This document shows, piece by piece, positions 1 through 36,935 of a stretch of 36,935 nt of DNA. Both the position numbers and the translations under genes were made by a program. The notes beneath the pieces were generated by a model. The model made no database searches, was not told the origin of the DNA, and saw nothing but the letters and a program-made list of their open reading frames with translations. The DNA comes from a virus: positions 1-36,935 of the IMG/VR virus record IMGVR_UViG_3300037479_000063; one strand, given 5' to 3'. Each line of letters begins with the position of its first letter. Position 1 is the stretch's first letter.

Positions 1-127
1 CCGAACTCGCCGCCCTCGTCGAGACCGCCCGCGCCCCCAACACCCGCCGCGCCTACCAGTCCGGCTGGCGCGACTTCGCCGCCTACTGCGAGCAGGCTGT
101 GCAAGCCAATGGCTTGCCTGTCCGCCC
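1..127. repeat. Terminal direct repeat, left copy (identical to 36809-36935); overlap of a circular contig
   Basis: Base-by-base comparison: ccgaactcgccgccctcgtc...ggcttgcctgtccgccc occurs at both ends of the window, 127 nt with no mismatch. Confidence 0.97.
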
Positions 128-7759: not shown

Positions 7760-8782
7760 TTACGGCAGCGGCGATACTTCATGCACGCAGATGATCGTGC
7801 CGGCGTTGCCCGCCGTGGTGTTGTAGCGGCTGCGAAACTGGGCCTTCACGATGTCGTTGCCTTCTTTGTCCTCCAGAGGGCCGACCGTCTTCCACTTGAT
7901 CGGCAGGTTAAGGATCAATCGCTTGGCGCTGTAGGTCGTCCCGGCCGAGGCCAGGTTATTGCCCTGGAAGTTCACCTGCAGGAGTCGCGCCGTCTGGGCG
8001 CGCCAGTCGGCCTTCGCGCCGGTGTTGCCCTGCGCCGCTACGTCGTGCTCGAAGGTCACCTCACCGGTGATCACGTGGTTGACGTACATCGGGAAGCTGT
8101 AATACAGGTTCCCGTCCATCGTGAATTTGGGGATGATCTTGATGTCACCGGTGATCTTGATCCCCAGGATCTGGTTGGCGATCGGGGTCGTGCCGTACGC
8201 GCCGCCGATGGCATCCAGGTACAGGCGGCCTCGCCCGACCAAAATGTCTTCAATGATCGGGATCGTCGCCGCCGCGAAGCCGCCGGCCAGCCGCTGCACC
8301 TGCCGGCCCATGAGCGAGGCCGAAAGCTTGAGCGTCTCGCCCGCCATTCCGCTCAACTCCCACTTGAGACACACCACGTACTCCATCTGTTCCACTTCCG
8401 AGTCGTCGCCGCCCTCGAAGGTGTACGGCTGGAGAGTCGGCGCCGTCGTGGTGGGGATGGTGGTGGTGTAAATGCGGCCGCTACCGGCGCCGTCGTTTGT
8501 CCCCGTTGTCGGGCCGCCCAGAGACATGGCCATGAAATACTGGAATTGCTCGAAGCTGATCGGCTGCGAGGGCACGTCCAGCATCCCCAGCAGTTTTATG
8601 ATCGCGGTGCGGTCCGCGCCGTCGCCGAGGATGCCAATCTGCTCGAGGATCTCTTCGACCTCGCGCTGATCCTTGAGCACCGCATCCTTCACGCGCAGCC
8701 GGGTGGTGGCCGCCACCGCCGTCCCGCCCGTGGTCTCGCGCCCAATCTGTACGCGCCGCAGTGATTTTCTTCCGAGTGCCAT
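7760..8782 (-). CDS. Major tail (tube) protein
   Basis: 340 aa. GGAGG lies 5 nt upstream of ATG 8782. Lies directly upstream of the G/GT chaperones. T/G-rich, beta-rich sequence. No sheath gene is present. Confidence 0.7.
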   Translation of the reverse strand: MALGRKSLRRVQIGRETTGGTAVAATTRLRVKDAVLKDQREVEEILEQIGILGDGADRTAIIKLLGMLDVPSQPISFEQFQYFMAMSLGGPTTGTNDGAGSGRIYTTTIPTTTAPTLQPYTFEGGDDSEVEQMEYVVCLKWELSGMAGETLKLSASLMGRQVQRLAGGFAAATIPIIEDILVGRGRLYLDAIGGAYGTTPIANQILGIKITGDIKIIPKFTMDGNLYYSFPMYVNHVITGEVTFEHDVAAQGNTGAKADWRAQTARLLQVNFQGNNLASAGTTYSAKRLILNLPIKWKTVGPLEDKEGNDIVKAQFRSRYNTTAGNAGTIICVHEVSPLP

Positions 8783-8791
8783 GCTGGCCTC

Positions 8792-8980
8792 CTATGCTTC
8801 GACGTACAGCGCGCTGGCCAGCAACCGCGCCACGTCGCGCACCAATAACTCGTCCAGATCACGCTGCGTCAGGTCGCGCGCCGGAACATCCGGCAGCGCC
8901 TCCCCCCGCCCCACATAGCGGAGCACAATCGGCTCAGCCGGTTTCGATGACTCTTCACCGGGAAATGTCTGATCGCTCAT
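8792..8980 (-). CDS. Small hypothetical virion-module protein
   Basis: 62-aa ORF with a GAAGG RBS 7 nt upstream of ATG 8980. Its stop overlaps the RBS of the major tail gene. Confidence 0.55.
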   Translation of the reverse strand: MSDQTFPGEESSKPAEPIVLRYVGRGEALPDVPARDLTQRDLDELLVRDVARLLASALYVEA

Positions 8981-21168: not shown

Positions 21169-21384
21169 CTATTCCGCCGGCGCGGTGACCGACTTGCGCA
21201 TCTCCAGGCTGCACGCCCGGCAGTTGTGCGCGCGGGCCTCGGCGTTGTACGTGCCGGCCTCGATCTGCGCCACCACCTCAGCCTCGAACGACGCGCCGGC
21301 ATGGTAAGCCGCTCCGGCTACGTTCTTCGGCTTCTCAAATTCCGGGCAGCCCTTGTTCGTGCAGTGGAAGTAAACGGATTTCAT
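21169..21384 (-). CDS. Small zinc-ribbon-like protein (71 aa)
   Basis: ATG 21384 overlaps the terL stop (ATGA). Cys pairs C-x4-C (CTNKGC) and C-x2-C (CRAC). Confidence 0.6.
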   Translation of the reverse strand: MKSVYFHCTNKGCPEFEKPKNVAGAAYHAGASFEAEVVAQIEAGTYNAEARAHNCRACSLEMRKSVTAPAE

Positions 21385-22829
21385 TGCGGTTGTCCTTTCT
21401 GACTCTTCATCGCCTCCGCCCGTTGGCGGTAGTGCTTCATAATGCCCGCCGCCGGCGTGCGGCTCGCCGCCAGCGCCAGCGCGTAACTATCGGCCCGGTC
21501 ATCGTGCTGCCCCTCCGGCGCGCGCAACGTCGAGCCATCAATACTCGCCAGTTGCGTGTACGTCTCGAAGCTGTGCAGCACCGTCGCCCCATCGCGGAAG
21601 CTCTCCGCCGCTCCGTCGTAGAGCAGCGCCTTGCCCTTCGCGTTGCTCAACCAGCCGGGCTTGCCATCCCAGCCCGGCAAGAGAGTCAGCGGCGAATTGC
21701 CGCCCAGCCACAGCAGCACCGCGTGTCCATGATTGTTGCGTTCGCACATCACCGCCGCGTTGTTGTAGTGGCGGCCAATCGCGTCGGCGTGCGCGCCCAG
21801 CGTCGCCGGCTGGAACTTCCCCGCCAGCGCCGCCACTTCCTCGTCTGTTTCGGCGTCGAGCATGGTCAACGCGCTGTCGTCGCTGCCCGGGTTGCCCTCC
21901 GCCGGGTCTGCGCCAATCACATACGTGCGCCCCGGCTCGGGCGCTTTATAGATCTTCAGCCCGGCAATCGCCGGCACACCCTCGGGTGTGATCGCCGGGA
22001 CAACTTGATAGCACCGCTCCAGCCAGTCCGGGGCGATGCGCTTGTCCAGCGTGCGTGGGCTGAGCGCCTCCGTGTCGGTCGCCGGATACTGCTCATGCAG
22101 CTCATCCTCGCTGCCCGTGCGCGCCATGATCTCGCGCCGCAGCGCCGCATACCAGTCCGGAGTGCGACCCGGCCGGGAATGCCAGGGCAGGAAGACCGGC
22201 TCCCAGCCCGTTTGGCCGCTCCTGGCTGCCCGGTACACGCGCTTGAACTCGCTCTCCGGCTGGCCCTTGTCCGCGCGGCTGAGTAGCAGCAACTGCCCGC
22301 CGGCGTCAATCGTCGGTTTCACGGCCGCCAACAGCCGCCCGAGGTCGGGTACCAGGTCGGCCTCATCCACCACCGCCACCGTGCCCGTGTACGTGTCGCC
22401 GCCCGTCGTCGGGAAGGCCAGCGCCATCGAGCCGTTGCTCAACCGCCACTCATGCTTGCTGTCAGCCAGTTCGGCCTGCGCTTGCAGCCAGACCGGCAGC
22501 CGCCGATACATGCCTTTCAGCCGGAAGTCCAGCAGATGCACCGACTCATCGTCGCGCTTGCTGAATAGCAGCGCCGTCGCCGCCGGGCGAAAGACCATCA
22601 GCCACAGCACATAGCCCAGCAGCAGCCAGGTCAGCCCAAGCTGCCGGGCCTTCAACATAATGACCCACCGATTGTTAAGGATCGTGCGCAACGTGGCCGC
22701 CTGCGCCGGCCACAACTCGAATGCCAGCCAGGCCCGCGTCGTCGCGTCATACACCTGCCCGTAGCGGTCCAGAAAGTACAGCGGACTCTCCGCGCAGGTC
22801 AGCCACTCAAGTTCCTGTTCCGGCGTCAT
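21381..22829 (-). CDS. terL: Terminase large subunit
   Basis: 482 aa. N-terminal ATPase region with Walker-A-like KARQLGLT and Walker-B-like AVVDEAD. C-terminal nuclease-like half (YVIGADPAEG...). Preceded by an overlapping small-terminase-like gene. Confidence 0.9.
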   Translation of the reverse strand: MTPEQELEWLTCAESPLYFLDRYGQVYDATTRAWLAFELWPAQAATLRTILNNRWVIMLKARQLGLTWLLLGYVLWLMVFRPAATALLFSKRDDESVHLLDFRLKGMYRRLPVWLQAQAELADSKHEWRLSNGSMALAFPTTGGDTYTGTVAVVDEADLVPDLGRLLAAVKPTIDAGGQLLLLSRADKGQPESEFKRVYRAARSGQTGWEPVFLPWHSRPGRTPDWYAALRREIMARTGSEDELHEQYPATDTEALSPRTLDKRIAPDWLERCYQVVPAITPEGVPAIAGLKIYKAPEPGRTYVIGADPAEGNPGSDDSALTMLDAETDEEVAALAGKFQPATLGAHADAIGRHYNNAAVMCERNNHGHAVLLWLGGNSPLTLLPGWDGKPGWLSNAKGKALLYDGAAESFRDGATVLHSFETYTQLASIDGSTLRAPEGQHDDRADSYALALAASRTPAAGIMKHYRQRAEAMKSQKGQPQ

Positions 22830-23262
22830 TGGCCGCGAACCGTTGTTGCTCGTACTCCGCCGCGCGCTCGCGCGCCCGCGCCAGGTCGTCGCCGTTCACC
22901 TCGTGCAGCCGCAGCGTCTGCTCCGGCGCGCCCTCGGTGCGGTCGGCGATCACGCCCAGCGCCTCCAGGTCGCCATCGGCCGCGCGCAGGCTCACCGTCC
23001 AGCCGATGATCTGCCCGATTCTCGCCCCGCTATCGATGAGATCGAGCAGCGCCTGTTTCCTGTCCGGCGGCATCGGCTGGCTCATCGCCTCGCGCAGCAG
23101 GTCGCTCAGCTTAGGCCCCGGTTTGGCCCCGCTTGGGTTGCCGCTCTGCCCCGGCTTCCAGCGGTACGGGTTGCCCTTCCTAAACGACGTTGCATTTGGG
23201 CCGCGCTGCTTGCCGCTGCCAGCCCGCTGCTTGCCTGCGGCGCGCTTGCTGTCTGCGGACAT
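22807..23262 (-). CDS. terS: Terminase small subunit candidate
   Basis: 151 aa from ATG 23262 (TAATG overlap). Basic N-terminus with FRKGNPYRWKPGQSGNPSGAKPG, a motif common in phage small-terminase-like proteins. Its 3-prime end overlaps terL by 23 nt. Confidence 0.65.
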   Translation of the reverse strand: MSADSKRAAGKQRAGSGKQRGPNATSFRKGNPYRWKPGQSGNPSGAKPGPKLSDLLREAMSQPMPPDRKQALLDLIDSGARIGQIIGWTVSLRAADGDLEALGVIADRTEGAPEQTLRLHEVNGDDLARARERAAEYEQQRFAANDAGTGT

Positions 23263-23448: not shown

Positions 23449-23679
23449 TCACTCCGCCGCCCAATGGCTCTCGAGCCGTTGTTTGAAAAACTCCGCCGCC
23501 GCCTTCAACTCGCGGTAGCGGTCGTGCCGGCGCTTCATCGCCACGCCGCCGCCGTACTGCTTGTAGACATTGTGGTCGAAGGCCATCTCCTGCGCCTGCG
23601 TGTCCAGCGCCTCGATGGCCAGTTGCAGCGCCTTCTGCTCCGAGATCGCAGTGGCAGCCGCCCTCTGCCTTCCGGTCAT
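23449..23679 (-). CDS. Small hypothetical protein (76 aa)
   Basis: ATG 23679 overlaps the upstream stop (ATGA). Helical composition. Confidence 0.55.
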   Translation of the reverse strand: MTGRQRAAATAISEQKALQLAIEALDTQAQEMAFDHNVYKQYGGGVAMKRRHDRYRELKAAAEFFKQRLESHWAAE

Positions 23680-24764
23680 GTCCCCGCCTGCATCCAGAAT
23701 GCCGGCGTGCGGTCGCGGCGCGTCAGCCGCCACCAGCCGTCGCGCATCTCGAACACATCGATCATCCACGTCACCCGCCGCTGCATCGCATAGCGTTGCC
23801 GGTCGGGCGCGAAGTACAGCGAAAACATCTTATTGTTGCCGTGGAAGCTGAACAGCGGCTCCTCGAACTGAGGCAGCGGGCGCGTGCCGGCCGTCGCCTG
23901 GCCGTGGGCGATCAACGGGGGGAGAAAATCTCGCTCGCCATCCACGTTGAACGGTTGCCAGTCGTGGTTGCCGCCGGTGCCGAAGGTATAAATCGCCGCG
24001 CATTCCACGCGCGGGTACGAGTGCAGCACCTGATCCCATTGAATGAGATCGAGCGCATACGCCGCCGCCGTCAGACCCGGGCGCGAGCGCCATGGCGGCA
24101 GGTCATAACCCGCTTCCGTGATCCAGATCGGAACGGGCATATTATGCTCGTTCTGCACTTCGATGAGTGTGTTGAGGGGATGCTCCCAGCCGGCCACCGA
24201 GTGATAGGCGTGGAGGTGCACGCGGCCACCGGTCTCGCGCAGCGCCCGCAGCACCGGCACGTAGACGCGCCAGGCCGCGCACTGCTGCTCACGGCTGCCG
24301 CTCGGGTTGCCCACCCCCATCCCACCGGCCATCGGCAGGAAGCCGGCCTGATGGATCTTCCAGATCTGATAGACCTCGAAGGCTGCACGCTGGCGCAGAT
24401 CATCCAGATCAGCCGGCTGCAGATCGTCGGGCACGCCGGGCAGGTTTTGTTTTTGGGTGTCCTCGTTCAAGCCGGTCGTCCAGAAGCGCACCTGCCGGTT
24501 GCCCGGATGCAGCACGTGCGGGGCCAGGTGAGTGAGCCAATACGTATCCGGGTCGTGCACATACGCCCGCCATTTGTTGTCGTGATGCGGGGCGCTGTCG
24601 CCGTTGAGGAAGACCCGGCCCGCAATCATCGGCTTCGGGGTCAGCTCGGCATAGGCCGCCGACTCTCCGTACGCGGCCACCAGGAACACACCCGGCGCCT
24701 TGCCCTCGCGGGTGAACTCGAACGCCGATTGGCTCTGCCCCATGTGGTGGGCGATAAGCTTCAT
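23676..24764 (-). CDS. Clan GH-A (TIM-barrel) glycoside hydrolase; lysin or depolymerase candidate
   Basis: 362 aa from ATG 24764 (ATGA overlap). TTGLNED (Asn-Glu acid/base type motif) and PIWITEAGYD (nucleophile-Glu type motif) are spaced about 135 aa apart, consistent with beta-4/beta-7 placement. Follows two membrane protein genes. Confidence 0.65.
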   Translation of the reverse strand: MKLIAHHMGQSQSAFEFTREGKAPGVFLVAAYGESAAYAELTPKPMIAGRVFLNGDSAPHHDNKWRAYVHDPDTYWLTHLAPHVLHPGNRQVRFWTTGLNEDTQKQNLPGVPDDLQPADLDDLRQRAAFEVYQIWKIHQAGFLPMAGGMGVGNPSGSREQQCAAWRVYVPVLRALRETGGRVHLHAYHSVAGWEHPLNTLIEVQNEHNMPVPIWITEAGYDLPPWRSRPGLTAAAYALDLIQWDQVLHSYPRVECAAIYTFGTGGNHDWQPFNVDGERDFLPPLIAHGQATAGTRPLPQFEEPLFSFHGNNKMFSLYFAPDRQRYAMQRRVTWMIDVFEMRDGWWRLTRRDRTPAFWMQAGT

Positions 24765-25300
24765 GTCAGCGTCCCCGTTCCCTCCGGCCTCCAGACCGGC
24801 TTCACGTTGAGATCTGTCTCCAACTGATTGATCAGCAGTCCAATTCCGGCGTTGAGTTTCAACCGCTGCTCGGTCAGGTAGTCGATGCGGCGCTGAGATT
24901 CGACCCACTTCAAGCGCAAATCGTCGCGTTCGGCTGTCAGGCGACGCTCGGCCGTTTCCAAGTCCTCGATGCGCCGCACATTGTTGCGCTGCGTCTGCTC
25001 CACCATCTGGCGCGCCCGGCGTTCATGCTCCAGTTCCCTGCTCAAGTTCTCGCGCGCCATGCGTTCGCTGATCAAGTCGGCCCGCACCTCCGCCAGCTCC
25101 GTGTCGCTCTCGTCGAGCCGGCGTCGGTACTCGGTCAAAATCTGCGTTGTGCTTTCCGTGGCGCTATTGAGAGCGGCGGCAATGTCCACCAGAGTCTGCG
25201 ACCGGGTGCGACGCGCCTGGATCCATGCGCCGCCCCACGCCGAGACCAGCGCGATCACAGAGATGAGGACGCCTTCGGGGATCGTCACCGGGATGCCCAC
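24761..25300 (-). CDS. N-terminally membrane-anchored coiled-coil protein (lysis accessory candidate)
   Basis: GTG 25300 (alternative GTG 25288). The TM segment VLISVIALVSAWGGAWI is followed by about 140 aa of E/R/L-rich heptads. Lies between the holin-like and hydrolase genes. Confidence 0.55.
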   Translation of the reverse strand: MGIPVTIPEGVLISVIALVSAWGGAWIQARRTRSQTLVDIAAALNSATESTTQILTEYRRRLDESDTELAEVRADLISERMARENLSRELEHERRARQMVEQTQRNNVRRIEDLETAERRLTAERDDLRLKWVESQRRIDYLTEQRLKLNAGIGLLINQLETDLNVKPVWRPEGTGTLT

Positions 25301-25308
25301 CCGACTCT

Positions 25309-25833
25309 TTACGCCTGCGGCCCACGCGGTCGGGAGCCAAAGCTGAAGGTGGCCCCGGCCTTCGACGTGATCCAATAGAACAGCTTCGTCGCCCCGATCT
25401 GTCCCACCAGGCCGACGATAGCTGTGCCCACCAGAGCGATCTCCTTGAAGGCCGTATCCACATCGGCCGGGTTGACATCGGGCGCGAAACGCCTGAGTGC
25501 GTACAGGCCGGCCGCGCCCAGCAGGTTGATCACTGCCTGGGCATCACCTGCCTGGCCGTCCTGGATGCGCCCGGTACGCTTCAGCACGTCCACGGAAAAC
25601 AGCGCGAAGGCCGCCCACCCGGCATAGGGCAATAGCGCCGAACCCAGGCCGCCGATGAAATCGAGCACCACAGCCAGCGGGTTGGCCGGCTCGGCCTGGA
25701 GCATCGGCGCCGCCAGCGCAACGCCCACGCCCAGAGCCAGGCTGCCCACCAGAGTCAGCACAATCAGCGCCCCGCGCCAGTAGGAGCGCGTTGCACGCGC
25801 GAGGGTATCAGAGATTCGGCTGAAGAGTTTCAT
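25309..25833 (-). CDS. Multi-pass membrane protein, holin-like by position
   Basis: GGAGG lies 6 nt upstream of ATG 25833; 174 aa. About four hydrophobic spans (ALIVLTLVGSLALGVGVALAA, GGLGSALLPYAGWAAFALFSV, AVINLLGAAGLYAL, ALVGTAIVGLVGQIG). First gene of the late operon. Confidence 0.6.
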   Translation of the reverse strand: MKLFSRISDTLARATRSYWRGALIVLTLVGSLALGVGVALAAPMLQAEPANPLAVVLDFIGGLGSALLPYAGWAAFALFSVDVLKRTGRIQDGQAGDAQAVINLLGAAGLYALRRFAPDVNPADVDTAFKEIALVGTAIVGLVGQIGATKLFYWITSKAGATFSFGSRPRGPQA

Positions 25834-25844
25834 GGGGGTCCTCC

Positions 25845-25886
25845 AAATAAAAAGGGCCACCCATCTCCGTAAGAGATGCGTGGCCC
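25845..25886 (-). terminator. Intrinsic terminator immediately upstream of the first late gene
   Basis: Minus strand reads GGGCCAC-G-CATCTC-TTACG-GAGATG-G-GTGGCCC followed by TTTTTATTT, then GGAGG and ATG 25833. Confidence 0.7.
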
Positions 25887-26116
25887 GGGTGGCCGCGGGC
25901 GCTCCAAGCCAAGCTGTGCTTGGCCCGTGAGCGCCCTTGTAGGCGTTGTTGCAGTCAGTCTAGCACGATCACCCGCCCCCTGCAATTGGTGGACGGTTTG
26001 GGACCGTAGGGGTTCCCCTTGTGGGTGCCCGCTCTGGTTGGCGTGCAAAGCGAAGCTTTGCCACAAATAACGGCCCCGCCGGGTGAGGGGGGCACCCGGC
26101 GCAGGCCGTTGAGGGG

Positions 26117-26144
26117 ATTATAATCTGAATGGATTGCGATACAA
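26117..26144 (-). promoter_or_regulatory. Candidate sigma-70-type late promoter (TTGTAT-16 nt-TATAAT)
   Basis: Minus strand reads TTGTATcgcaatccattcagatTATAAT. This is the only perfect TATAAT I noticed in this intergenic region. The -35 overlaps palindrome 26142-26178. Confidence 0.4.
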
Positions 26145-26178
26145 GTGCCCACCCGAGTGTGAGTCGGGTGGGCACTTG
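26142..26178. repeat. Palindrome 1 of the GCCCACCCGA family (15-bp arms, 7-bp spacer), intergenic
   Basis: caagtgcccacccga-gtgtgag-tcgggtgggcacttg. Lies 14 nt downstream of the stop of CDS 26192-26713. Confidence 0.95.
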
Positions 26179-26191
26179 ATTGACGTGACGA

Positions 26192-26713
26192 TCACCCATC
26201 CGCTGTGTAGTCGCAATACTCACCCCCCGCGATCTTCTTCGGACAGAACCACTTCCCACCCTTCCCCATCTTCATCGGCCCGCCGTGATATTTGCAGTGC
26301 GGGGCCTGCCCACCCGAGTTAGGAGTCGGGTGGGCAATCAACGTCACCGGATGCATCCCGGCCTTCACCAGGAACTCGCTCACCTGCTGCTGCATCTGCA
26401 CCGCCCCGCCGGCCGTGTCGGCCTCGAAGGTCAGGTGGCAGGTGAAGCCGTTCTTATCCACGTAATCCACCGCCATCTGCGGGTTGCGCTTCGGAGCATT
26501 TGCAGGATGCTGCCCACCCGACTCTCCACTCGGGTGGGCAGATTGTGGCGCCGCCTTCGGATCCGGGCTGGCGTTCGGGTAGGCTGTTTGCGGTGCCGGC
26601 TGCAGTGCCGGCTTGGCCACAGGCGCGGTTGTGGGGCTGCTCTGACTCGGGTGGGCATTCGGCGAGCCCACTCGGGTGGGCGCGGGTTGGGGTTGTCGCA
26701 ATGGGGCCGTCAT
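26192..26713 (-). CDS. P/A/Q-rich protein with C-terminal zinc-ribbon-like motif; hosts the palindrome array
   Basis: 173 aa from ATG 26713 (ATGA overlap). C-terminus reads HCKYHGGPMKMGKGGKWFCPKKIAGGEYC. The low-complexity N-terminal half is encoded by DNA carrying the 12-mer repeats (AHPS, AHPT, APTRVG). Confidence 0.65.
   Translation of the reverse strand: MTAPLRQPQPAPTRVGSPNAHPSQSSPTTAPVAKPALQPAPQTAYPNASPDPKAAPQSAHPSGESGGQHPANAPKRNPQMAVDYVDKNGFTCHLTFEADTAGGAVQMQQQVSEFLVKAGMHPVTLIAHPTPNSGGQAPHCKYHGGPMKMGKGGKWFCPKKIAGGEYCDYTADG
26307..26336. repeat. Palindrome 2 (11-bp arms, 8-bp spacer), inside the CDS
   Basis: tgcccacccga-gttaggag-tcgggtgggca. Translated on the minus strand as IAHPTPNSGGQ. 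Confidence 0.95.
26510..26541. repeat. Palindrome 3 (12-bp arms, 8-bp spacer), inside the CDS
   Basis: ctgcccacccga-ctctccac-tcgggtgggcag. Translated as SAHPSGESGGQ. Confidence 0.95.
26645..26681. repeat. Two direct copies of the half-site ACTCGGGTGGGC, 25 bp apart, inside the CDS
   Basis: actcgggtgggc at 26645-26656 and 26670-26681. On the coding strand one copy is read as A-H-P-S and the other, in a different frame, as (A)-P-T-R-V. Confidence 0.95.
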
Positions 26714-27111
26714 TCCGCCACCTCCGCCACATGCCGCCAGCGGCCAGACTCTTTGTCGTATTGCAGCCACGCGGCGCATCCCTCCAGCCACACCATCCCC
26801 TGCGGCGCCGTCACCATCAACTCATCGGCCCGCGCCATCGCATTCAGCAGATCGATGCTGTGGGCGTCCGAGACGTGGAAGGTCCAGGTCCAGGTCTCTA
26901 CATCAACTGGCGCTGCCTTGAATTCGATCCCCAGGTTGATCAGCGACGCGGCCAGGAGCTTCACCCGCAGGATGCCTCGGATAGTGTTAACGGCCATCGT
27001 CATCCTCCGGCGGTCGTCAGCTTCTGGGGAGTCGTCGTCTTCGTGACCATTGTCGTCGTCGGCATCCTGCAATGGCTGAAGATCACGATGCTCGGTCAGT
27101 GGGCCTGCCAT
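26710..27111 (-). CDS. Hypothetical protein with acidic N-terminus (133 aa)
   Basis: ATG 27111. N-terminal DADDDNGHEDDDSPEADD, then a globular-looking domain (TWTWTFHVSDAHSIDLLNAMARADELMV). An internal start at MTMAV is possible. Confidence 0.6.
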   Translation of the reverse strand: MAGPLTEHRDLQPLQDADDDNGHEDDDSPEADDRRRMTMAVNTIRGILRVKLLAASLINLGIEFKAAPVDVETWTWTFHVSDAHSIDLLNAMARADELMVTAPQGMVWLEGCAAWLQYDKESGRWRHVAEVAE

Positions 27112-27115
27112 GGTC

Positions 27116-27295
27116 TTATCCCTTTCCCAATTGGTCGATCAGCGCCGTGATTTCTTTTTCAATCTGCCTGCGCTTCGCCGGGTCGCTCTCCGCCAGCAGT
27201 TCACGGCGCTTGGCGTCAATGGATTCGGAGAGTTTTACTACGCGGCGCATGTCGCGCGCCACCCGGCGCAGACCGTCGAGGGGCTTAGTGCTCAT
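27116..27295 (-). CDS. Small helical hypothetical protein (59 aa)
   Basis: ATG 27295 overlaps the upstream stop (ATGA). K/R/E-rich. Confidence 0.5.
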   Translation of the reverse strand: MSTKPLDGLRRVARDMRRVVKLSESIDAKRRELLAESDPAKRRQIEKEITALIDQLGKG

Positions 27296-27399
27296 CGTGG
27301 CCTCCCCGTCTGCCCACGCGATAACGCGGTCAGCCACATGCCCAACATGCCGGCGGCCATCCCGAAAGCAAAGCTGATCAGGTCCGTGAGGGTCAACAT
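27292..27399 (-). CDS. Very small hydrophobic peptide (35 aa), tentative
   Basis: ATG 27399 lies 1 nt after the upstream stop. MLTLTDLISFAFGMAAGMLGMWLTAL is a single TM-like span. Its stop overlaps the next start. Confidence 0.35.
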   Translation of the reverse strand: MLTLTDLISFAFGMAAGMLGMWLTALSRGQTGRPR

Positions 27400-27921: not shown

Positions 27922-28497
27922 TCATTGAATCACGATCGGCAGGCTCTCGGTGTAGCCGTCCACGGACACGATTAGCGTGCCGGTGCCGGGCGTGGTGCTG
28001 CGCCCGATCTGCCACGTCCACGCGCATAGGCCTTCGGCATCGGTGGTCTGGTTCTCCAGGCCCTGGGCATCGCTGACGTTGCCGGCCGGCGTGCGATAAG
28101 TGATGAAGCAATTCGCGCCCGGCGTGGTGCGGATCACCAGCCGCGCCTCACCATTGACCGGCACCGGCGAACGTAGCTCCACCACGGTGAATGTCGGCGC
28201 CTGCGTCGGGATCGGCGTGCGCGTCGGTTCGGTGGTCGGGGTGGGCGGCACGCTGGTGCTGGTCGGATCAGAGATGGATGTCGGCGGGCGAGTTGCTATA
28301 TTCAGCGGCGCGGCCGTGTCGGTGGGCAGCGCCAGAGTCGCCAGCCGGGCCGGCGTCGCGGTCGGCGGGCGCGGCGTCGACGGGAACAGCGCCGTCATGC
28401 AGATCACGCTCGCACAGCACAGCGCCAGCAGCGCCGCGCCGCCGGCGAAGATCGCCTGCAGGCGATGGGCCTTGGCCCAAGCGAGGATACGTTGCAT
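27922..28497 (-). CDS. Secreted or lipid-anchored protein with P/T-rich linker and beta-sandwich-like C-terminal domain
   Basis: GGAGG lies 5 nt upstream of ATG 28497. Signal-peptide-like AIFAGGAALLALCCASVIC is followed by a PT-rich linker (PTSTSVPPTPTTEPTRTPIPTQAPT) and an about 90-aa beta-rich domain. Flanked by the two operator-bearing promoters. Confidence 0.7.
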   Translation of the reverse strand: MQRILAWAKAHRLQAIFAGGAALLALCCASVICMTALFPSTPRPPTATPARLATLALPTDTAAPLNIATRPPTSISDPTSTSVPPTPTTEPTRTPIPTQAPTFTVVELRSPVPVNGEARLVIRTTPGANCFITYRTPAGNVSDAQGLENQTTDAEGLCAWTWQIGRSTTPGTGTLIVSVDGYTESLPIVIQ

Positions 28498-29946: not shown

Positions 29947-30112
29947 CACGCGCTCCCCGCCGCGCAATGCAAAGCGCGGCGCGCCTCCACCGGAAGCAAC
30001 GCCGCGCGGCGTTTGGCACTGTCACAGTGCCGCTTCACCCCCCGGCCCGGTTCGAGCGGGCCGGGGGAAATCTCAACCGACTCTACGACACCCCACCGAA
30101 AGGAGTCAAGCC

Positions 30113-30632: not shown

Positions 30633-30797
30633 ATGAACCACAAGCCAAAACACGATCACGATCTGTTCACCCTCACGCCGCAGGGCCGGAGCTTCGCCCT
30701 GTGGTTGATCCGCTGGTTGGTGGTCGTCGTCGTCATTGCCCTGCTGGTGATGTGCGCGGCCGGCATCGCCATTGGGGGGAGGATCCAACTTCACTAA
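30633..30797 (+). CDS. Small membrane protein (54 aa)
   Basis: ATG 30633. TM segment FALWLIRWLVVVVVIALLVMCAAGIAIG. Its stop lies 1 nt before the next ATG. Confidence 0.5.
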   Translation: MNHKPKHDHDLFTLTPQGRSFALWLIRWLVVVVVIALLVMCAAGIAIGGRIQLH

Positions 30798-30798
30798 C

Positions 30799-31587
30799 AT
30801 GCTCAGCCAAGACGATAAGGTGCGCTGGATCGCGCGCCTCAAAGGCGGCCCGCTGACCGCCCTCATCCTGTTGTTGGTCTATCAGCGGCCAGTGCACCGC
30901 AAGGCTATCATGCAGCAGATGCAATGGGACAAGACCACGGCCAGGAAGTACCTCGCCACCCTGGAGCAGGAGAGGCTCGCCGTCCAGGTGGAGGATGTCT
31001 GGCAATTGCCACAGGCCGGCTACCAGCTGGCCCTCACGCTCGTCGCGGTGGACGCGCCCGACCAGGGTGCCGGGGAAATAGCCCCCGCGTTCACCGGCGA
31101 GCTGTCACGCCGGGGAGAAATTTCCTCGCCCAGTATTATTAGTGTTGAGTCTTCTGATTCAATTGAGTCTCTAAATAAGACTACTAATACTGGCGGGAGA
31201 AAATTTCTCGCCCCGCCGAAGGGGCGCCACAGTAGTGGCGGCCAGCACATCGCCGCCGTCCTCGCGTCACTGGCACGCAAGGGCGCGCCGGCTCCCGCCG
31301 ACGATGACCCCTTCCCCGCCGATCTGAGGCAATGCATCGAGCAGCTCGTGCATCTCGGCGCGCCCCGCCGTAAAGCCGAGCTGGCCGTCGCCGCCTCGCC
31401 CTTCGACAGCGCCACCCTCGCCGGCGAGATCGTCGCCTGGCAGCGCCACTACCAGTCGCCGGCAGGGAGGGGCATCAAAGCCGACGGCTTCCCGTTCCTG
31501 GTCTGCCGGCGTCTGGCCGATGGCGAGCGCTGCCCGACCCAACTCGCCGCCGTCGATCCGTACGGCGGCTATCTCTCGAATGACTAG
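30799..31587 (+). CDS. Winged-helix protein; replication initiator/organiser candidate with an internal origin-like region
   Basis: 262 aa. The N-terminal wHTH-like segment is LKGGPLTALILLLVYQRPVHRKAIMQQMQWDKTTARKYLATLEQERLA. The gene contains the AT-rich repeat-flanked segment at 31113-31213, an arrangement like lambda O and ori-lambda. Confidence 0.6.
   Translation: MLSQDDKVRWIARLKGGPLTALILLLVYQRPVHRKAIMQQMQWDKTTARKYLATLEQERLAVQVEDVWQLPQAGYQLALTLVAVDAPDQGAGEIAPAFTGELSRRGEISSPSIISVESSDSIESLNKTTNTGGRKFLAPPKGRHSSGGQHIAAVLASLARKGAPAPADDDPFPADLRQCIEQLVHLGAPRRKAELAVAASPFDSATLAGEIVAWQRHYQSPAGRGIKADGFPFLVCRRLADGERCPTQLAAVDPYGGYLSND
31113..31213. other. Candidate replication origin: about 59-bp AT-rich core flanked by direct repeats that each contain a near-palindrome
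   Basis: gggagaaatttcctcgccc (31113-31131) and gggagaaaatttctcgccc (31195-31213) flank agtattattagtgttgagtcttctgattcaattgagtctctaaataagactactaatac. The core is about 29 percent GC by count and contains ttgagtct twice. Confidence 0.55.
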
Positions 31588-31595
31588 GAGAACTC

Positions 31596-31889
31596 ATGCA
31601 CATCCAAACCAGCACTAAGACCATGCTGGAACTGACCATCATCCTCGACGAGGTCCAGGCCCGCGCCGCGATCGACGACGCCAGCGATCTGCAAGCGCAA
31701 ATCAAACAGGCGCTCAACGGTCGCGCCGTAGCGCCGCGCACCAGTCGGGAACGCGTGATGCGCCCAAAAGGAAAGCGCCGCGCACCAGTCGGGAACGGCG
31801 GCGAACTCAAGTGCCCGCACTGCGACAAGGACTTCAAGACGCAAGGCTGGCTGGACAAACATCTGTCGGCTGCCCACGCTGCGGCCTGA
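31596..31889 (+). CDS. Classical C2H2 zinc-finger protein (97 aa)
   Basis: AGGAG lies 5 nt upstream of ATG 31596. The C-terminus CPHCDKDFKTQGWLDKHLSAAH fits C-x2-C-x3-F-x5-L-x2-H-x4-H and is preceded by the basic stretch RPKGKRRAP. Confidence 0.75.
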   Translation: MHIQTSTKTMLELTIILDEVQARAAIDDASDLQAQIKQALNGRAVAPRTSRERVMRPKGKRRAPVGNGGELKCPHCDKDFKTQGWLDKHLSAAHAAA

Positions 31890-31999
31890 GAGTCCCGGCG
31901 CTGACGCCCGGTGGCGTGTGTGAGCTCTGCGATTACGAACTGACCACCACCCCCACCGAGCGCGCCCGCCATCTCATTGACCTGGAGAACACCCCATGA
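31811..31999 (+). CDS. Small zinc-ribbon protein (start uncertain)
   Basis: CPRCGLRVPALTPGGVCELC (C-x2-C-x12-C-x2-C). Its stop overlaps the next ATG (ATGA). The only in-frame start is GTG 31811, giving a 79-nt overlap with the previous gene in the -1 frame. Confidence 0.45.
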   Translation: MPALRQGLQDARLAGQTSVGCPRCGLRVPALTPGGVCELCDYELTTTPTERARHLIDLENTP

Positions 32000-33831
32000 C
32001 TCTCAAATCGTTGCCCCTCGACCACATCCACCTCAACCCCTTCCAGATGTGGTCACTCGACCACAACCACGTCGCCGAACTGTCTGCGGACATCGCCGCC
32101 AACGGCCTGCTCCAACTGCCGAAAGCGCGCCCCCACCCGGAGAAGACCGGCCACGTGCAGCTCGCCTTCGGCCATCACCGCCGCGCCGCCGTCCACCAGC
32201 TCGGCTGGGTGGAGATGCCCATCGAAGTCGAGCCGCTGACCGACGTGCAGATGGCCACCTTTGCCGCCGTCGAGAACTTCCGCCGCCGCGAGGTCACCGC
32301 GCTGGACAAAGCCCGCGTGCTCCAATCCCTCACCCAGCCGCCGCTGGCCATGACCCACGCCCAGGCCGCGGCGGTCGTGGGCCTCAAAGACCCGGCCAGC
32401 GTCTCCAACCTGATCAAGCTGCTCAAGCTCCCCCCGGCGGTGCAGGAGTCGGTGGGGCGGGGCGATCTGCCCGAGCGCGTCGCCCGCCAGCTCGTCTCGC
32501 TCGCGCCGCTGGCGAAAAAGAGAATCGAGACCGTCGCCAAGGCCGTCGCTAAAGCCAAACCCGCCGAGCGCGAGGCCGTGCTAGAGGAGCAGGTGGATGC
32601 GCTGATGCGCCGCGCCGCGAAATCGCTCCACAAGGCGGAATGGGACGCGCACTGGCTGCGCACACCCATCCCCGTCGAGCACCCCGCCGACGGCCAGCCC
32701 GCCGAACTGCGCGCGTGCGCCGGCTGCCCGCACGTCTACCGGCGCGGCGGCAACGAGTTCTGCACGTTGCTGGCCTGCTACGAACTCAAAGAACAGCGAT
32801 TCATCAGTGAGCAGCTCGCCCGCGCCGCTGAGCGCCTGGGCGTGCCCGTCGTCGCCGAGGGCGAAAAGACCCAGCCCGTCTTCCGCGAGCACAACTGGAG
32901 CGCCTATGAGGACACGCAGACCCTGCTCAAGCTCTGGCCGAATGACGAGTCGCTCGGGCTGCGACTGGGCATTCTTAAGGAAGCCGCCTACTACAATGGC
33001 CGCACCTTCGGGGCCACGCGCATCGGGCTGTTCACGCTCGATAAGGCCGCCTGCGAGCGCGCCATCACGGCCGCCTCGCGACGCAGTTCTGCCCCGGCGG
33101 CCCCGTCACCGGCCGCGCTGGAAAAGGAACGCGCTGCCCGTCGGGCCGAGCGCGCCGCCGCGCTGCGCCTCGAGCATGACCTCGCCTGGCTGCTGCGCAC
33201 TGCCAGCGAGTGGATCGGCGACGCGCTCACCATCTCCGGCCGGGCGCTGCACTACGTGGTCGAGCTTCTCGTGTGCGACGATGACATGAACGCCCGCCAC
33301 TATCCGGCCGTCTGGGCCTGGTACGAGGCGATGAAGGAGCAGGCCGCCAAGGTGCAGGGATACGATGGCGCTGCCAACGAGATTCGCCGCCGCCGGCTGG
33401 TGGCCGCTCAACTCGTCAGCGATTGCATTGACGCCTACACCAAAGACTCGCCGGCGAAGGTCTGGCATGACGCGCTGGACCAGCTGGCGGCGCGGGCCGA
33501 GAGACGGCATGAAGACGGCTTGGTCGTCTTCGGCGTCAATCCCCCCAAAGGCTGGGACCATCCGCCCGTCCATAAGACCGACTACAACTGCTGGACCTGC
33601 GGCGTCTTCCACGGCGGCGCGCGGCGCAAGTTGAGCAAAGCCGACTTCGAGCGCGGCTGGCGCATCGTCGAGCAGGGCCAGACCGTCCTCTCCGTCGCCT
33701 GCCCCGACTGCGCGGCTACAACCCAACCCGCGTCCGCGCCCGGCAAACCCAAGCCCGTAGGGGCACCCCTTATGGGTGCCCGCCCCGTGACGGCCCCCAA
33801 GCCCAAGAAGAAAGGAGCGCGCCGCCGATGA
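31996..33831 (+). CDS. ParB/Srx-like N-terminal domain protein with HTH and C-terminal Cys clusters (611 aa)
   Basis: LDHIHLNPFQ...GLLQLPKARP...VQLAFGHHRRAAV (ParB box-II-like G-x-x-R-R-x-A). HTH-like MTHAQAAAVVGLKDPASVSNLIKL. Later CAGCPH...CTLLAC and CWTCG...CPDC pairs. Basic tail PKPKKKGARRR. Confidence 0.75.
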   Translation: MTLKSLPLDHIHLNPFQMWSLDHNHVAELSADIAANGLLQLPKARPHPEKTGHVQLAFGHHRRAAVHQLGWVEMPIEVEPLTDVQMATFAAVENFRRREVTALDKARVLQSLTQPPLAMTHAQAAAVVGLKDPASVSNLIKLLKLPPAVQESVGRGDLPERVARQLVSLAPLAKKRIETVAKAVAKAKPAEREAVLEEQVDALMRRAAKSLHKAEWDAHWLRTPIPVEHPADGQPAELRACAGCPHVYRRGGNEFCTLLACYELKEQRFISEQLARAAERLGVPVVAEGEKTQPVFREHNWSAYEDTQTLLKLWPNDESLGLRLGILKEAAYYNGRTFGATRIGLFTLDKAACERAITAASRRSSAPAAPSPAALEKERAARRAERAAALRLEHDLAWLLRTASEWIGDALTISGRALHYVVELLVCDDDMNARHYPAVWAWYEAMKEQAAKVQGYDGAANEIRRRRLVAAQLVSDCIDAYTKDSPAKVWHDALDQLAARAERRHEDGLVVFGVNPPKGWDHPPVHKTDYNCWTCGVFHGGARRKLSKADFERGWRIVEQGQTVLSVACPDCAATTQPASAPGKPKPVGAPLMGARPVTAPKPKKKGARRR

Positions 33832-36711: not shown

Positions 36712-36935
36712 ATGGCGCACCCGCCATTCTGTGACACAGAAATCAGAATGCCCGCGATGCAAGCACCGGCCCTCACCCTCCACCCTCCACCCTCCACACC
36801 GCTCGCCCCCGAACTCGCCGCCCTCGTCGAGACCGCCCGCGCCCCCAACACCCGCCGCGCCTACCAGTCCGGCTGGCGCGACTTCGCCGCCTACTGCGAG
36901 CAGGCTGTGCAAGCCAATGGCTTGCCTGTCCGCCC
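36712..36935 (+). CDS. Cre-like tyrosine recombinase, 5-prime part (continues at position 128 of the window via the circular junction)
   Basis: ATG 36712 (alternatives ATG 36748 and 36757) is in frame with ...APELAALVETARAPNTRRAYQSGWRDFAAYCEQAVQANGLPVRP, which reads straight into ORF 99-938. No stop before the window end. Confidence 0.85.
   Translation, partial: MAHPPFCDTEIRMPAMQAPALTLHPPPSTPLAPELAALVETARAPNTRRAYQSGWRDFAAYCEQAVQANGLPVR
36774..36794 (+). repeat. Heptanucleotide tandem repeat (CACCCTC x3 with partial flanking copies) in the 5-prime part of the recombinase gene
   Basis: cct-caccctc-caccctc-caccctc-cacacc. The unit length is not a multiple of 3. Confidence 0.9.
36809..36935. 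repeat. Terminal direct repeat, right copy (identical to 1-127)
   Basis: See the left copy. Exact 127-nt identity. Confidence 0.97.

What the first reader, a model, noticed from the sequence alone, without database searches (positions are those of the whole stretch)
26142..26681. Array of eight GCCCACCCGA(G/C)T half-sites, arranged as lox-like palindromes, inside and beside a CDS
- **What is there.** Within 540 bp the 12-mer A(C/G)TCGGGTGGGC occurs eight times.
  - Six copies form three inverted pairs: 15-7-15 at 26142-26178, 11-8-11 at 26307-26336 and 12-8-12 at 26510-26541.
  - Two copies are direct, at 26645 and 26670.
  - I saw no exact copy elsewhere in the genome. A one-base-longer near-copy, gtcggggtgggc, lies at 28235-28246.
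- **Selection looks nucleotide-level.** The in-CDS copies are translated in different frames (AHPS versus PTRV).
- **Spacers.** They are asymmetric and differ between copies, but share a GT...GAG polarity. Copy 3 is inverted relative to copies 1 and 2.
- **Why it matters.** Perfect arms of 11-15 bp around a 7-8 bp asymmetric spacer are the layout of tyrosine-recombinase core sites (loxP and FRT are 13-8-13). This genome encodes two tyrosine recombinases.
- **Alternatives.**
  - An operator or centromere array for the ParB-like or wHTH proteins; copy 1 overlaps the -35 of the putative late promoter.
  - An in-frame invading palindromic element, like Rickettsia RPEs.
  - Stable mRNA hairpins.
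Basis: partly seen in the sequence, partly recalled or inferred. Interest (0 to 1): 0.78.

Follow-up and report, generated by a model that had tools for sequence, protein, structure and literature searches.

The report
Binding-site array inside phage late-regulator gene
About ten copies of one 13-base DNA word are written into the flexible-linker codons of a small zinc-ribbon gene and the gap before the phage's late (lysis and packaging) genes; five related uncultivated phages have the same layout, so it is most likely a protein-binding array at the early-to-late switch, not a set of lox-like recombination sites.

Summary
**Observation.** It is real and slightly larger than reported.
- The eight 12-mers are confirmed, and a ninth exact copy lies at 25295-25306. 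Observed 9 against about 0.2-0.8 expected.
- Codon choice is rare in every copy, and copies occur in different frames, on both strands and in non-coding DNA. Selection therefore acts on the nucleotides.

**Relatives.**
- The host gene ("X", 26192-26713, minus strand) has a disordered N-terminus, a small beta-beta-alpha-beta domain and a basic C-x2-H…C…C zinc ribbon. It matches no known family.
- In five of six genomes where context is visible, X is the last gene before the late operon.
- Four relatives carry 7-10 copies of a sister motif (TGCCCCCTC[G/A]) at matching places in X, plus a hairpin pair just after its stop codon. A fifth carries the array elsewhere. Two have X and no array.

**Lox-like reading: not supported.**
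- Spacers differ in sequence and length.
- Relatives use mostly single direct copies, and pairs with 2-, 3-, 7- or 8-nt gaps in both orientations.
- Neither recombinase tracks the array.

**Best reading (about 0.45).** A cluster of monomer-type binding sites for a phage regulator, possibly X itself, controlling transcription into the late operon. The binder is untested.

**Rivals.** An RNA hairpin or terminator role, a centromere or a pac site remain possible.

The parts
26146..26174 (.). Pair 1. TGCCCACCCGA-GTGTGAG-TCGGGTGGGCA; arms extend to 15 nt (26142-26178). Non-coding, between the gene X stop codon (26192) and the putative late promoter. Its centre lies 38 bp upstream of the -10 hexamer.
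   Evidence: - (repeat I9).
- Folds as a hairpin of -33.4 kcal/mol, z -7.2.
- Equivalent pairs follow the stop codon of X in L006, L195, L197 and L217.
26307..26336 (.). Pair 2 (11-8-11). Lies in the linker between the central domain and the zinc ribbon of X, and encodes AHPTPNSGGQ.
   Evidence: -.
- The linker has low model confidence (pLDDT 77-81).
- It is no longer than in homologues.
26510..26541 (.). Pair 3 (12-8-12). Lies in the disordered region before the central domain of X, and encodes AHPSGESGGQ.
   Evidence: - (repeat I24).
- pLDDT is 59-68 in this region.
26645..26682 (-). Two single copies in sense orientation at the 5' end of X: 26645-26657 in the AHPS frame and 26670-26682 in the PTRV frame. 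The second begins with C instead of T.
25294..25306 (+). It sits at the junction of the first two late genes, antisense to transcription.
25425..25753 (+). Two degenerate copies, TGCCCACCAGA, at 25425-25435 and 25743-25753, inside the first late gene. Their membership in the array is uncertain.
   Evidence: -.
- They could be chance matches to the codons of Leu-Val-Gly.
26192..26713 (-). Gene X, 173 aa. Residues 1-78 are disordered, 79-122 form a beta-beta-alpha-beta domain, and 140-172 form a basic C-x2-H…C…C zinc ribbon. It is the last gene before the late operon.
   Evidence: - Sequence and coding signal.
- Relatives: 217 found.
- Model.
- No Pfam, PHROG, NCBIfam or structural match.
26117..26144 (-). 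Putative late promoter, inferred: -35 TTGTAT at 26144-26139, a 16-nt spacer, and -10 TATAAT at 26122-26117.
   Evidence: - Read from the sequence.
- Equivalent -10 boxes occur in L006 (TATAAT), L003 (TATAAT), L217 (TACACT), L192 (TAGAAT) and L216 (TAGACT).
- Not called by the consensus scan.
26061..26110 (-). Leader hairpin starting at about the predicted transcription start, followed by AUUUGUGG. This is a promoter-then-terminator layout like lambda PR'-tR'.
   Evidence: -: -32.9 kcal/mol.
- The core GCGCCGGGTGCCCCCCTCACCCGGCG is identical in L192 and similar in L216.
23676..25833 (-). First late genes: a 174-aa multi-pass membrane protein, a 179-aa membrane-anchor plus coiled-coil protein, and a 362-aa glycosidase-like protein. 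Together they look like a lysis cassette. A TerS-like gene (22807-23262) and TerL (21381-22829) follow.
   Evidence: -, by inspection of the translations.
- (TerL).
- (weak DUF5681 match for the TerS-like protein).

Best explanation
**What it is.** The 12-mers are this phage's version of a clade-specific recognition word.
- Core: T-G-C-C-C-[A/C]-C-[C/T]-C-[G/A].
- Here it is extended to TGCCCACCCGA-S-T.

**Layout.** About ten copies are packed into and just beyond gene X, the last gene before the late (lysis, packaging, structural) operon.
- The copies sit only where the protein is disordered.
- The array ends in an inverted pair between the X stop codon and the late promoter.

**Proposed mechanism.**
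- Each copy is a binding site for one subunit of a sequence-specific phage-encoded protein.
- Gene X's own product, with its basic zinc ribbon, is the prime candidate.
- The loaded array controls whether transcription enters the late operon, in one of two ways:
  - activation or antiterminator loading at the promoter-proximal pair;
  - a roadblock or titration effect from the copies inside the gene.
- The "palindromes" are two abutting half-sites that double the number of sites per stretch of linker. As hairpins they may also act as terminators.

**Shown.**
- The enrichment of the motif.
- The nucleotide-level constraint.
- The conserved architecture and gene order.
- The concerted change of the motif in all copies.

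**Inferred.**
- That a protein binds the motif.
- Which protein it is.
- The regulatory outcome.
For: **1. Enrichment.** 9 exact copies against 0.2-0.8 expected, all within 1.4 kb.

**2. Nucleotide-level constraint.** Every copy uses rare codons. Copies occur in three frames, both orientations and non-coding DNA.

**3. Sharp motif edges.** Position 0 and positions 1-9 are fixed or nearly so, position 11 is degenerate (G or C), and T at position 12 is conserved. That pattern fits protein contacts, not stem pairing.

**4. Five other phages carry sister arrays.**

| Locus | Observed copies | Expected |
|---|---|---|
| L006 | 7 | 0.39 |
| L195 | 8 | 0.05 |
| L197 | 10 | 0.03 |
| L217 | 11 | 0.24 |
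| L003 | 11 | 2.5 |

- In four of them the copies fall in the same three places in X: the N-terminal tail, the linker before the central domain, and the linker between domains.
- Those four also have a pair just after the stop codon.

**5. Concerted change.** All copies in the window carry A at position 5 and C at position 7. All 47 copies in the relatives carry C and T there. This is as expected for sites that co-evolve with one binder.

**6. Gene order.** X is the last gene before the late operon in the window, L006, L003, L216 and L217. After it come a good -10 box and a hairpin with a T-run, then lysis-like genes. This is the position that Q holds in lambda.

**7. Position relative to the promoter.** The promoter-proximal half-site is centred about 29-30 bp upstream of the -10 in the window and L006, and about 50 bp upstream in L217. 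The difference is about two helical turns.

**8. Charge.** The C-terminal zinc ribbon is lysine-rich: net about +4 by my count of the sequence.
Against: - Nothing here shows binding.
- X matches no known DNA-binding fold.
- Two phages have X but no array: L192 (the same phage as L001) and L216.
- The zinc-ribbon subtype does not track whether an array is present.
- L003 has the array 5.5 kb away from X, after the portal gene and mostly antisense. A strictly promoter-linked role does not predict that.
- In four relatives nearly all copies inside the gene are in sense orientation. This could point to recognition on RNA or on the non-template strand rather than on duplex DNA.
- The late promoter and its start site are predicted, not mapped.
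- The near-identity of the core across phages whose X proteins are only about 40% identical would also fit a conserved host factor.
Confidence: 0.45

Rival explanations
1. **RNA-level element.**
- The inverted pairs are transcription terminators, attenuators or stabilising hairpins of the early operon.
- The sense copies on the X mRNA are sites for an RNA-binding antiterminator (like lambda N and its nut sites), or pairing partners that compete with the terminator stem.
For: - All pairs fold strongly (-27 to -33 kcal/mol, z -3.3 to -7.2).
- Every array-bearing X gene is followed within 10-55 nt by such a hairpin.
- In L006 the hairpin is followed by UUUGUUUUU.
- Both arm orders, with gaps of 2-8 nt, make a hairpin. 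They would present very differently to a dimeric DNA binder.
- Nearly all copies inside the gene in L006, L195, L197 and L217 are in sense orientation.
- The late leader hairpin displays a near-copy of the sister motif, UGCCCCCCUCA, in its loop.
Against: - Pair 1 in the window has no U-tract.
- Copies inside the gene in the window are paired, so the motif would be buried in stems.
- The L003 array is mostly antisense to transcription, and so are the downstream copies in the window.
- Stems do not explain the conserved T at position 12 next to a degenerate position, or the sharp 5' edge of single copies.
Confidence: 0.17
2. **Centromere-like or silencing site for the ParB-like protein (31996-33831).** The protein would load on the array, as dispersed SopB or KorB sites do in plasmid prophages.
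For: - A 611-aa protein with ParB_N and HTH_ParB domains is conserved in the window, L001 and L003.
- An array that can move, as in L003, fits a site that works anywhere in cis.
- A copy number of about 10 is typical of centromeres (general knowledge).
Against: - No ParA-type ATPase was found among the proteins scanned.
- The sites are asymmetric 13-mers at irregular spacing, not 14-16-bp parS palindromes.
- L192 encodes a ParB-like protein but has no copy of either motif.
- The array sits in the same places within X in four phages, which a free-floating centromere does not require.
Confidence: 0.08
3. **Packaging recognition site (pac or cosB-like).** The small terminase would bind the array, with cleavage near its centre.
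For: - The motif arrows converge on a centre in the window, L006 and L003.
- The array lies upstream of the terminase genes.
- About 10 copies would match a ring-shaped small terminase (general knowledge).
- L003 and L006 share both the motif and the TerS-like, TerL and portal genes.
Against: - The window uses a different TerS and TerL family (a DUF5681-type TerS, shared with L192), yet its motif differs from the sister motif at only 2 of 13 positions.
- L192, with that same TerS family, has no array in the 29 kb seen.
- The array is 2-3.4 kb from the TerS-like gene.
- TerL relatives in IMG/VR show no such arrays.
Confidence: 0.06
4. **Tyrosine-recombinase core sites (lox, FRT or dif-like).** These would mediate inversion or deletion.
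For: - Three 11-7/8-11 inverted pairs.
- Two XerC/D-sized recombinases are encoded.
Against: - Spacers differ in length and sequence.
- Relatives have single direct copies, and pairs with 2-3-nt gaps in both arm orders.
- The second recombinase is absent from relatives, and the integrase is present where there is no array.
- The inverted segment would not remain an open reading frame.
- The only other assembly of this phage is 100% identical.
Confidence: 0.03
5. **No dedicated function.** A short repeat is homogenised by gene conversion or slippage in tolerant linker DNA, or a peptide motif (A-P-S or A-H-P-S) is selected at the protein level, or a mobile palindromic element has invaded.
For: - Copies lie in low-complexity Pro/Ala/Ser-rich regions.
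- L195 shows one obvious 24-nt tandem duplication.
- Most copies inside the gene share one frame.
Against: - Flanks diverge immediately outside the 10-13-mer.
- Copies occur in non-coding DNA, other frames, the other strand and other genes.
- The peptides differ between phages while the DNA is kept.
- The three-cluster-plus-hairpin layout persists across phages whose X proteins are about 40% identical.
- The linkers are no longer than in homologues.
- The palindrome is absent from reference genomes and metagenomes, except for one unrelated Terrabacter terminator.
Confidence: 0.08

Closest known systems
Lambda ori iterons inside gene O, and similar origins inside phage initiator genes
   Same: - Several copies of a protein-binding word, some with dyad symmetry, are written into the codons of a flexible linker of a phage gene.
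- The coding sequence tolerates them because that part of the protein is unstructured (textbook knowledge of lambda O/ori).
   Different: - X shows no similarity to initiators.
- A separate wHTH initiator-like gene has its own AT-rich inverted-repeat element at 31112-31213. In the relative L192 the initiator gene carries three palindromic iterons.
- No AT-rich unwinding region flanks the array.
- Spacing is irregular, from 13 to 200 bp.
Stoperators and operators of cluster A mycobacteriophages (L5 gp71-type monomeric repressor; PMC9283540)
   Same: - Many copies of an asymmetric 13-bp site, each thought to bind one monomer.
- Orientation is related to the direction of transcription.
- The role is control of transcription elongation as well as initiation.
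   Different: - Stoperators number more than 20, are spread over the whole genome, lie mainly in short intergenic gaps, and include the early-promoter operator.
- Here all copies lie in one 0.6-1.4 kb cluster, mostly inside one gene, with none at the early promoters.
- No repressor homologue has been identified.
Lambda Q - QBE - PR' - tR' late antitermination module
   Same: - A small zinc-containing regulator gene sits immediately upstream of the late promoter.
- A good -10 box is followed at once by a terminator-like hairpin, then lysis genes, then terminase genes.
- A DNA element abuts the promoter.
   Different: - X has no sequence or fold similarity to the Q families.
- Q needs one binding element, not about ten.
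- No copies inside the gene are known for Q.
- L001-type phages keep X away from the late promoter.
loxP, FRT and dif recombination cores
   Same: 11-13-bp inverted arms around a 7-8-bp asymmetric spacer, at three places in the window.
   Different: - The spacers are not identical.
- The architecture is not conserved in relatives.
- No recombinase co-occurs with the array.
Dispersed ParB, SopB or KorB sites of plasmid prophages and plasmids
   Same: - A ParB-like protein is encoded.
- Multiple cis sites can lie inside genes and near control regions.
   Different: - The sites are not short symmetric palindromes.
- No ParA was found.
- A relative has ParB but no sites.

Membership tests
Tyrosine-recombinase core site (lox/FRT/dif type) | Two inverted recombinase-binding arms flanking a 6-8-bp spacer | tested here: met
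   Three pairs in the window: 11-7-11, 11-8-11 and 11-8-11.
Tyrosine-recombinase core site (lox/FRT/dif type) | Partner sites share an identical spacer (overlap region) | tested here: not met
   The spacers are GTGTGAG, GTTAGGAG and GTGGAGAG. Lengths are 7, 8 and 8 nt, and spacers 2 and 3 match at 5 of 8 positions.
Tyrosine-recombinase core site (lox/FRT/dif type) | The site architecture and a cognate recombinase are conserved together in relatives | tested here: not met
   - Relatives have single direct copies, and pairs with 2-3-nt gaps in both arm orders.
- The second recombinase has no homologue in relatives.
- The integrase is present in L192, which has no array.
Tyrosine-recombinase core site (lox/FRT/dif type) | Rearranged (inverted or deleted) variants exist in populations | not testable with these tools
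   Only one other assembly exists and it is 100% identical.
Origin iterons inside an initiator gene (lambda O/ori type) | Repeated binding words lie within a linker-coding part of a gene | tested here: met
   The copies lie in segments of low model confidence.
Origin iterons inside an initiator gene (lambda O/ori type) | The host gene encodes the replication initiator, and an AT-rich unwinding region adjoins the repeats | tested here: not met
   - X has no initiator signature.
- A separate initiator-like gene carries its own AT-rich inverted-repeat element.
- Only about 35 bp of promoter-like AT-rich DNA flanks the array.
ParB-parS centromere | Presence of ParB predicts presence of the sites; a ParA partner exists; the sites are short symmetric palindromes | tested here: not met
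   - L192 has a ParB-like protein but no motif copy.
- No ParA appeared in the scans.
- The sites are asymmetric 13-mers.
pac/cosB terminase recognition site | The motif co-varies with the small-terminase family | tested here: not met
   The window (DUF5681-type TerS) and L003/L006 (an unrelated 100-aa TerS-like protein) have near-identical motifs. L192, with the window-type TerS, has none.
pac/cosB terminase recognition site | Packaged DNA ends map to the site | not testable with these tools
   No reads are available. The assembly is circular, with a 127-nt terminal overlap.
REP/RPE-like mobile palindromic element | Many copies occur in host or other genomes, and the element appears as an insertion relative to homologues | tested here: not met
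   - One unrelated hit in 185,579 species genomes, three orthologous hits in metagenomes, and none in IMG/VR.
- The linkers are not longer than in homologues.
- Caveat: the host is unknown and may not be in the collection.
Stoperator-type monomer operator set | Asymmetric sites of about 13 bp with a sharp consensus, used singly | tested here: met
   Position table of 11 window copies and 47 relative copies.
Stoperator-type monomer operator set | Sites are dispersed genome-wide in intergenic gaps and at the early promoter; a cognate two-domain repressor exists | tested here: not met
   All copies lie in one cluster, with none elsewhere in 36.8 kb. No repressor homologue was identified.
Q-type late antitermination module | Regulator gene directly upstream of the late promoter, followed by a terminator and then lysis and packaging genes | tested here: met
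   Gene order in the window, L006, L003, L216 and L217, plus promoter and hairpin patterns. These are patterns only; no transcripts were mapped.
Q-type late antitermination module | The regulator is homologous to the Q-lambda, Q21 or Q82 families | tested here: not met
   No Pfam, PHROG or NCBIfam hit, and no significant Foldseek hit.

The most novel reading that the evidence does not exclude
**A self-encoded operator array inside the gene.** A previously undescribed late-switch protein (family X: beta-beta-alpha-beta domain plus a CHCC zinc ribbon) would bind about ten sites written into the disordered-linker codons of its own gene, and a hairpin pair next to the late promoter.

Newly made protein would then load in cis. 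It would both throttle its own transcription and time read-through or activation of the lysis and packaging operon. The disordered linkers would exist partly to carry DNA sites.
Probability: 0.22. Interest if true: 0.75.

Novelty: new variant of a known kind. Interest (0 to 1): 0.6.

Why it matters
**If the array is a binding platform for the late switch**, it would be a clear case where one stretch of DNA is selected both as protein linker and as regulatory site.
- It would introduce a new family of phage late regulators, with 217 relatives and no annotation.
- It would give a design in which site number is raised by using disordered codons.
- It also gives a practical handle. The sites can be recoded synonymously, so the DNA role and the protein role can be separated cleanly.

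**If the array is instead a pac site or a centromere**, it would mark a cis element for an uncultivated phage group. One relative was binned with an Anaerolineales genome, which is only a weak hint about the host.

Tried and rejected
**Shufflon or invertible segment.**
- Pairs 2 and 3 flank the central domain and are 204 bp (68 codons) apart.
- The inverted strand has stop codons, and the spacers differ.

**Host repeat.** Exact pattern scans gave one Terrabacter terminator hairpin among the genomes, three orthologues of it among the metagenomes, and nothing among the viral contigs.

**Origin of replication.** A better candidate lies inside the initiator-like gene.

**Terminase relatives.** 57 IMG/VR loci related to either TerL family show no comparable array.

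**More X loci from IMG/VR.** Only the contig already known was found. One alignment was too diverse to search with.

**Window-type motif pairs in IMG/VR.** There were 18 hits. All were short tandem repeats at regular spacing, and none had an X homologue.

**Identity of X.**
- Pfam, PHROGs, NCBIfam and a PDB sequence search gave nothing significant.
- Foldseek against the PDB and BFVD also gave nothing significant. The weak hits to RbpA, DdrB and protein L had E-values above 0.1.

**Other checks.**
- Rfam finds nothing in 24800-27300.
- No upstream neighbour gene is shared by the array-bearing phages.
- The 133-aa upstream protein is not a split-off N-terminal domain of the long X homologues.
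- Population variants: the second assembly is identical.
Full report
**1. The observation**

One search confirms eight exact copies of ASTCGGGTGGGC between 26147 and 26681.
- It adds a ninth exact copy at 25295-25306, and a one-mismatch copy at 25744.
- With one mismatch allowed there are 10 matches against 0.78 expected, and no shuffle reaches 10.
- The 10-mer core occurs 9 times against 0.19 expected.
- The full word is TGCCCACCCGA-S-T. Its edges are sharp, with a degenerate G/C at position 11 and a conserved T at position 12.
- Seen along the plus strand, the motif arrows run: forward at 25294, 25425 and 25743; then three forward-reverse pairs; then reverse at 26647 and 26672.

**2. Genomic setting**

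The window is a circular assembly of 36,808 bp; its ends overlap by 127 nt. It is a phage with about 65% G+C. It encodes:
- TerL at 21381-22829;
- a portal fused to a Mu F-like domain;
- tail genes;
- two XerC/D-sized recombinases;
- a ParB-like protein;
- a wHTH initiator-like protein

.

The array lies in and beside gene X (26192-26713, minus strand).
- The coding signal is good in the folded parts of X: GC3 is 0.78-0.90.
- The AlphaFold model has mean pLDDT 80. Residues 1-78 are disordered, 79-122 form a beta-beta-alpha-beta unit, and 140-172 form a zinc-ribbon-like module with invariant C140, H143 and C167 and nearly invariant C157.
- All copies inside the gene fall in the disordered tail or in the two linkers.

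Downstream of the stop codon come, in order:
1. Pair 1.
2. A perfect TATAAT at 26122-26117.
3. A hairpin that begins at about the predicted start site and ends in AUUUGUGG.
4. Three genes that by inspection look like a lysis cassette.
5. A TerS-like gene and TerL.

This is the order Q - PR' - tR' - lysis - terminase of lambda. The promoter and its start site are inferred, not mapped.

**3. Nucleotide-level selection**
- The copies use AGT (7.7% of Ser codons), ACT (7.9% of Thr) and GGT (7.8% of Gly) every time.
- One copy is read as PTRV, the others as AHPS or AHPT, and the opposite arms as SGGQ.
- Pair 1 and the copy at 25294 lie outside X.
- The linkers that hold the pairs are not longer than in homologues, so the pairs are not insertions.

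**4. Relatives**

A word-index search found only three homologues of X. A full profile search found 217. None has a Pfam, PHROG or NCBIfam match.

Arrays of a sister motif were found in five other phages:

| Locus | Copies and motif | Where | After the X stop codon |
|---|---|---|---|
| L006 | 7 x TGCCCCCTCG | mostly in X | two hairpin pairs |
| L195 | 8 x TGCCCCCTCGA(C/G)T | in X | tail-to-tail pair, 2-nt gap |
| L197 | 10 x TGCCCCCTCACA | in X | same as L195 |
| L217 | 11 x (T/G)(A/G)CCCCCTCGA(C/G)T | in X | two pairs |
| L003 | about 10 x TGCCCCCTC(G/A) | not in X; just after the portal gene, mostly on the other strand | not applicable |

- In the four "in X" cases the copies occupy the same three places as in the window: the N-terminal tail, the linker before the central domain, and the linker before the zinc ribbon. 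A pair follows the stop codon in each.
- Two phages with X have no copy at all: L192 (the same phage as L001) and L216.
- All copies in the window differ from all 47 copies in the relatives at the same two positions (A5 and C7 against C5 and T7).
- The encoded peptide changes accordingly, from AHPS to APSS, APSQ or TPST. The change is concerted and lies in the DNA.

**5. What this rules out**

*Recombination cores.*
- The spacers differ.
- Relatives use single copies and pairs with 2-, 3-, 7- or 8-nt gaps in both arm orders.
- Neither recombinase tracks the array.
- Inversion between pairs 2 and 3 would hit stop codons.

*Host repeat or mobile palindrome.* Scans of 185,579 genomes, of JGI metagenomes and of IMG/VR found only one unrelated Terrabacter terminator and its orthologues. 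The caveat is that the host is unknown.

*Origin of replication.* A better candidate is the AT-rich inverted-repeat element inside the initiator-like gene at 31112-31213. It is mirrored by palindromic iterons in the initiator gene of L192.

*Small terminase as the binder.* Two unrelated TerS families go with nearly the same motif, and L192 shares the window's TerS family yet has no array.

*ParB as the binder.* L192 has the protein but no sites, no ParA was found, and the sites are not parS-like.

**6. Most likely mechanism**

A sharply bounded, asymmetric word of about 13 nt is used singly, or as abutting pairs in any arrangement. It is kept at about ten copies in one short region, it changes in concert, and it always ends next to the junction between the early operon and the late operon. 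This is best explained as a set of sites, each bound by one subunit of a sequence-specific protein that acts on transcription at that junction.

Position relative to the promoter:
- In the window and L006 the promoter-proximal half-site is centred about 29-30 bp upstream of the -10 box.
- In L217 it is about 50 bp upstream, two helical turns further.

X is the obvious candidate binder.
- The sites live in its gene.
- It sits where a late regulator would sit.
- Its zinc ribbon is basic.

A plausible logic is cis loading. Protein made from the gene would bind the neighbouring sites, limit further transcription through X, and act on the late promoter or terminator.

I put this at about 0.45. Binding, the identity of the binder and the direction of control are all inferred.

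The facts that fit least well:
- The relocated, antisense array in L003.
- Phages with X but no array.
- The strong sense bias of copies inside the gene in four relatives. That bias could be a coding constraint (sense copies read Ala-Pro-Ser) or could mean the word is read on RNA.

**7. RNA-level rival**

All pairs are strong hairpins, and a hairpin after the stop codon is universal in array-bearing X genes. In addition, the leader hairpin of the late transcript carries GGTGCCCCCCTCACCC.
- Its 26-nt core is identical in the window and L192, and similar in L216.
- It resembles the sister motif TGCCCCCTCAC with one extra C.

An N/nut-like or terminator-masking scheme therefore cannot be excluded (about 0.17). 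Against it: the copies inside the gene in the window would be buried in stems, the L003 copies are antisense, and conservation extends beyond the stem.

**8. Comparison with known systems**

The nearest analogies are:
- lambda ori iterons in the linker of gene O (sites inside linker codons);
- the monomer-bound asymmetric stoperators of cluster A mycobacteriophages (PMC9283540);
- the lambda Q/PR'/tR' layout.

The array fails at least one defining feature of each (see the membership table). I therefore rate it a new variant of a known kind, namely clustered protein-binding words, and not a member of any named family.

**9. Limits**
- The host is unknown.
- No reads, transcripts or binding data are available.
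- Three of the relatives are contigs of 1.6-7.3 kb.
- The relatives were found through X, so the link between X and the array is partly a result of how they were found. The placement of the copies inside X is not.

Noticed in passing
window 31112-31213: An AT-rich segment with 16-29-nt inverted repeats (GGGGAGAAATTTCCTC … GAGAAAATTTCTCGCC) lies inside the wHTH initiator-like gene 30772-31587. It is a candidate origin of replication. The relative L192 has three palindromic iterons, CCGATGTACAAAAA..GTACATCGG, at 8725-8815 inside its DnaA_N-domain initiator gene.
   Followed up: partly
window 26110-26061 (minus strand); L192 15909-15934; L216 about 5318-5336: The late-transcript leader hairpin has the core GCGCCGGGTGCCCCCCTCACCCGGCG. 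This core is identical in the window and L192, although their proteins are only about 40-60% identical. A similar box occurs in L216. Its loop resembles the sister array motif with one extra C.
   Followed up: partly
window 31730-31753 and 31774-31797: An exact 24-nt direct repeat, AGCGCCGCGCACCAGTCGGGAACG, lies inside the small C2H2 zinc-finger gene 31596-31889.
   Followed up: no
window 1-127 and 36809-36935: The two ends are identical over 127 nt, so the assembly is circular and the true length is 36,808 bp. The second tyrosine recombinase ORF crosses this junction, and it has no homologue in the relatives fetched.
   Followed up: yes
window 23676-25833 (minus strand): The first three late genes look like a lysis cassette by inspection: a 174-aa multi-pass membrane protein, a 179-aa membrane anchor plus coiled coil, and a 362-aa glycosidase-like protein. 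Homologues occur in the same order in L192. None matches a family.
   Followed up: partly
window 28451-28466, 29998-30013, 30015-30031: Perfect 16-17-bp palindromes (ATCGCCTGCAGGCGAT, AACGCCGCGCGGCGTT, GGCACTGTCACAGTGCC) flank the integrase gene. They are possible operators or attP elements.
   Followed up: no
L136 1471-1520 and 2056-2138: An unrelated IMG/VR phage has two blocks of tandem 12-bp iterons containing TCTATTAGAC, about 2 kb upstream of its TerL.
   Followed up: no
L192 15092-15145: Five copies of AAACGTTCCA lie within 55 bp in an intergenic gap of the relative that lacks an array. This is a possible operator cluster.
   Followed up: no
L216 (contig JADLEU010000374.1, 38,911 bp): A gene X homologue on a phage-sized contig is labelled by NCBI as coming from an 'Anaerolineales bacterium' metagenome-assembled genome. 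This is the only hint about the host (Chloroflexota), and binning of phage contigs is unreliable.
   Followed up: no
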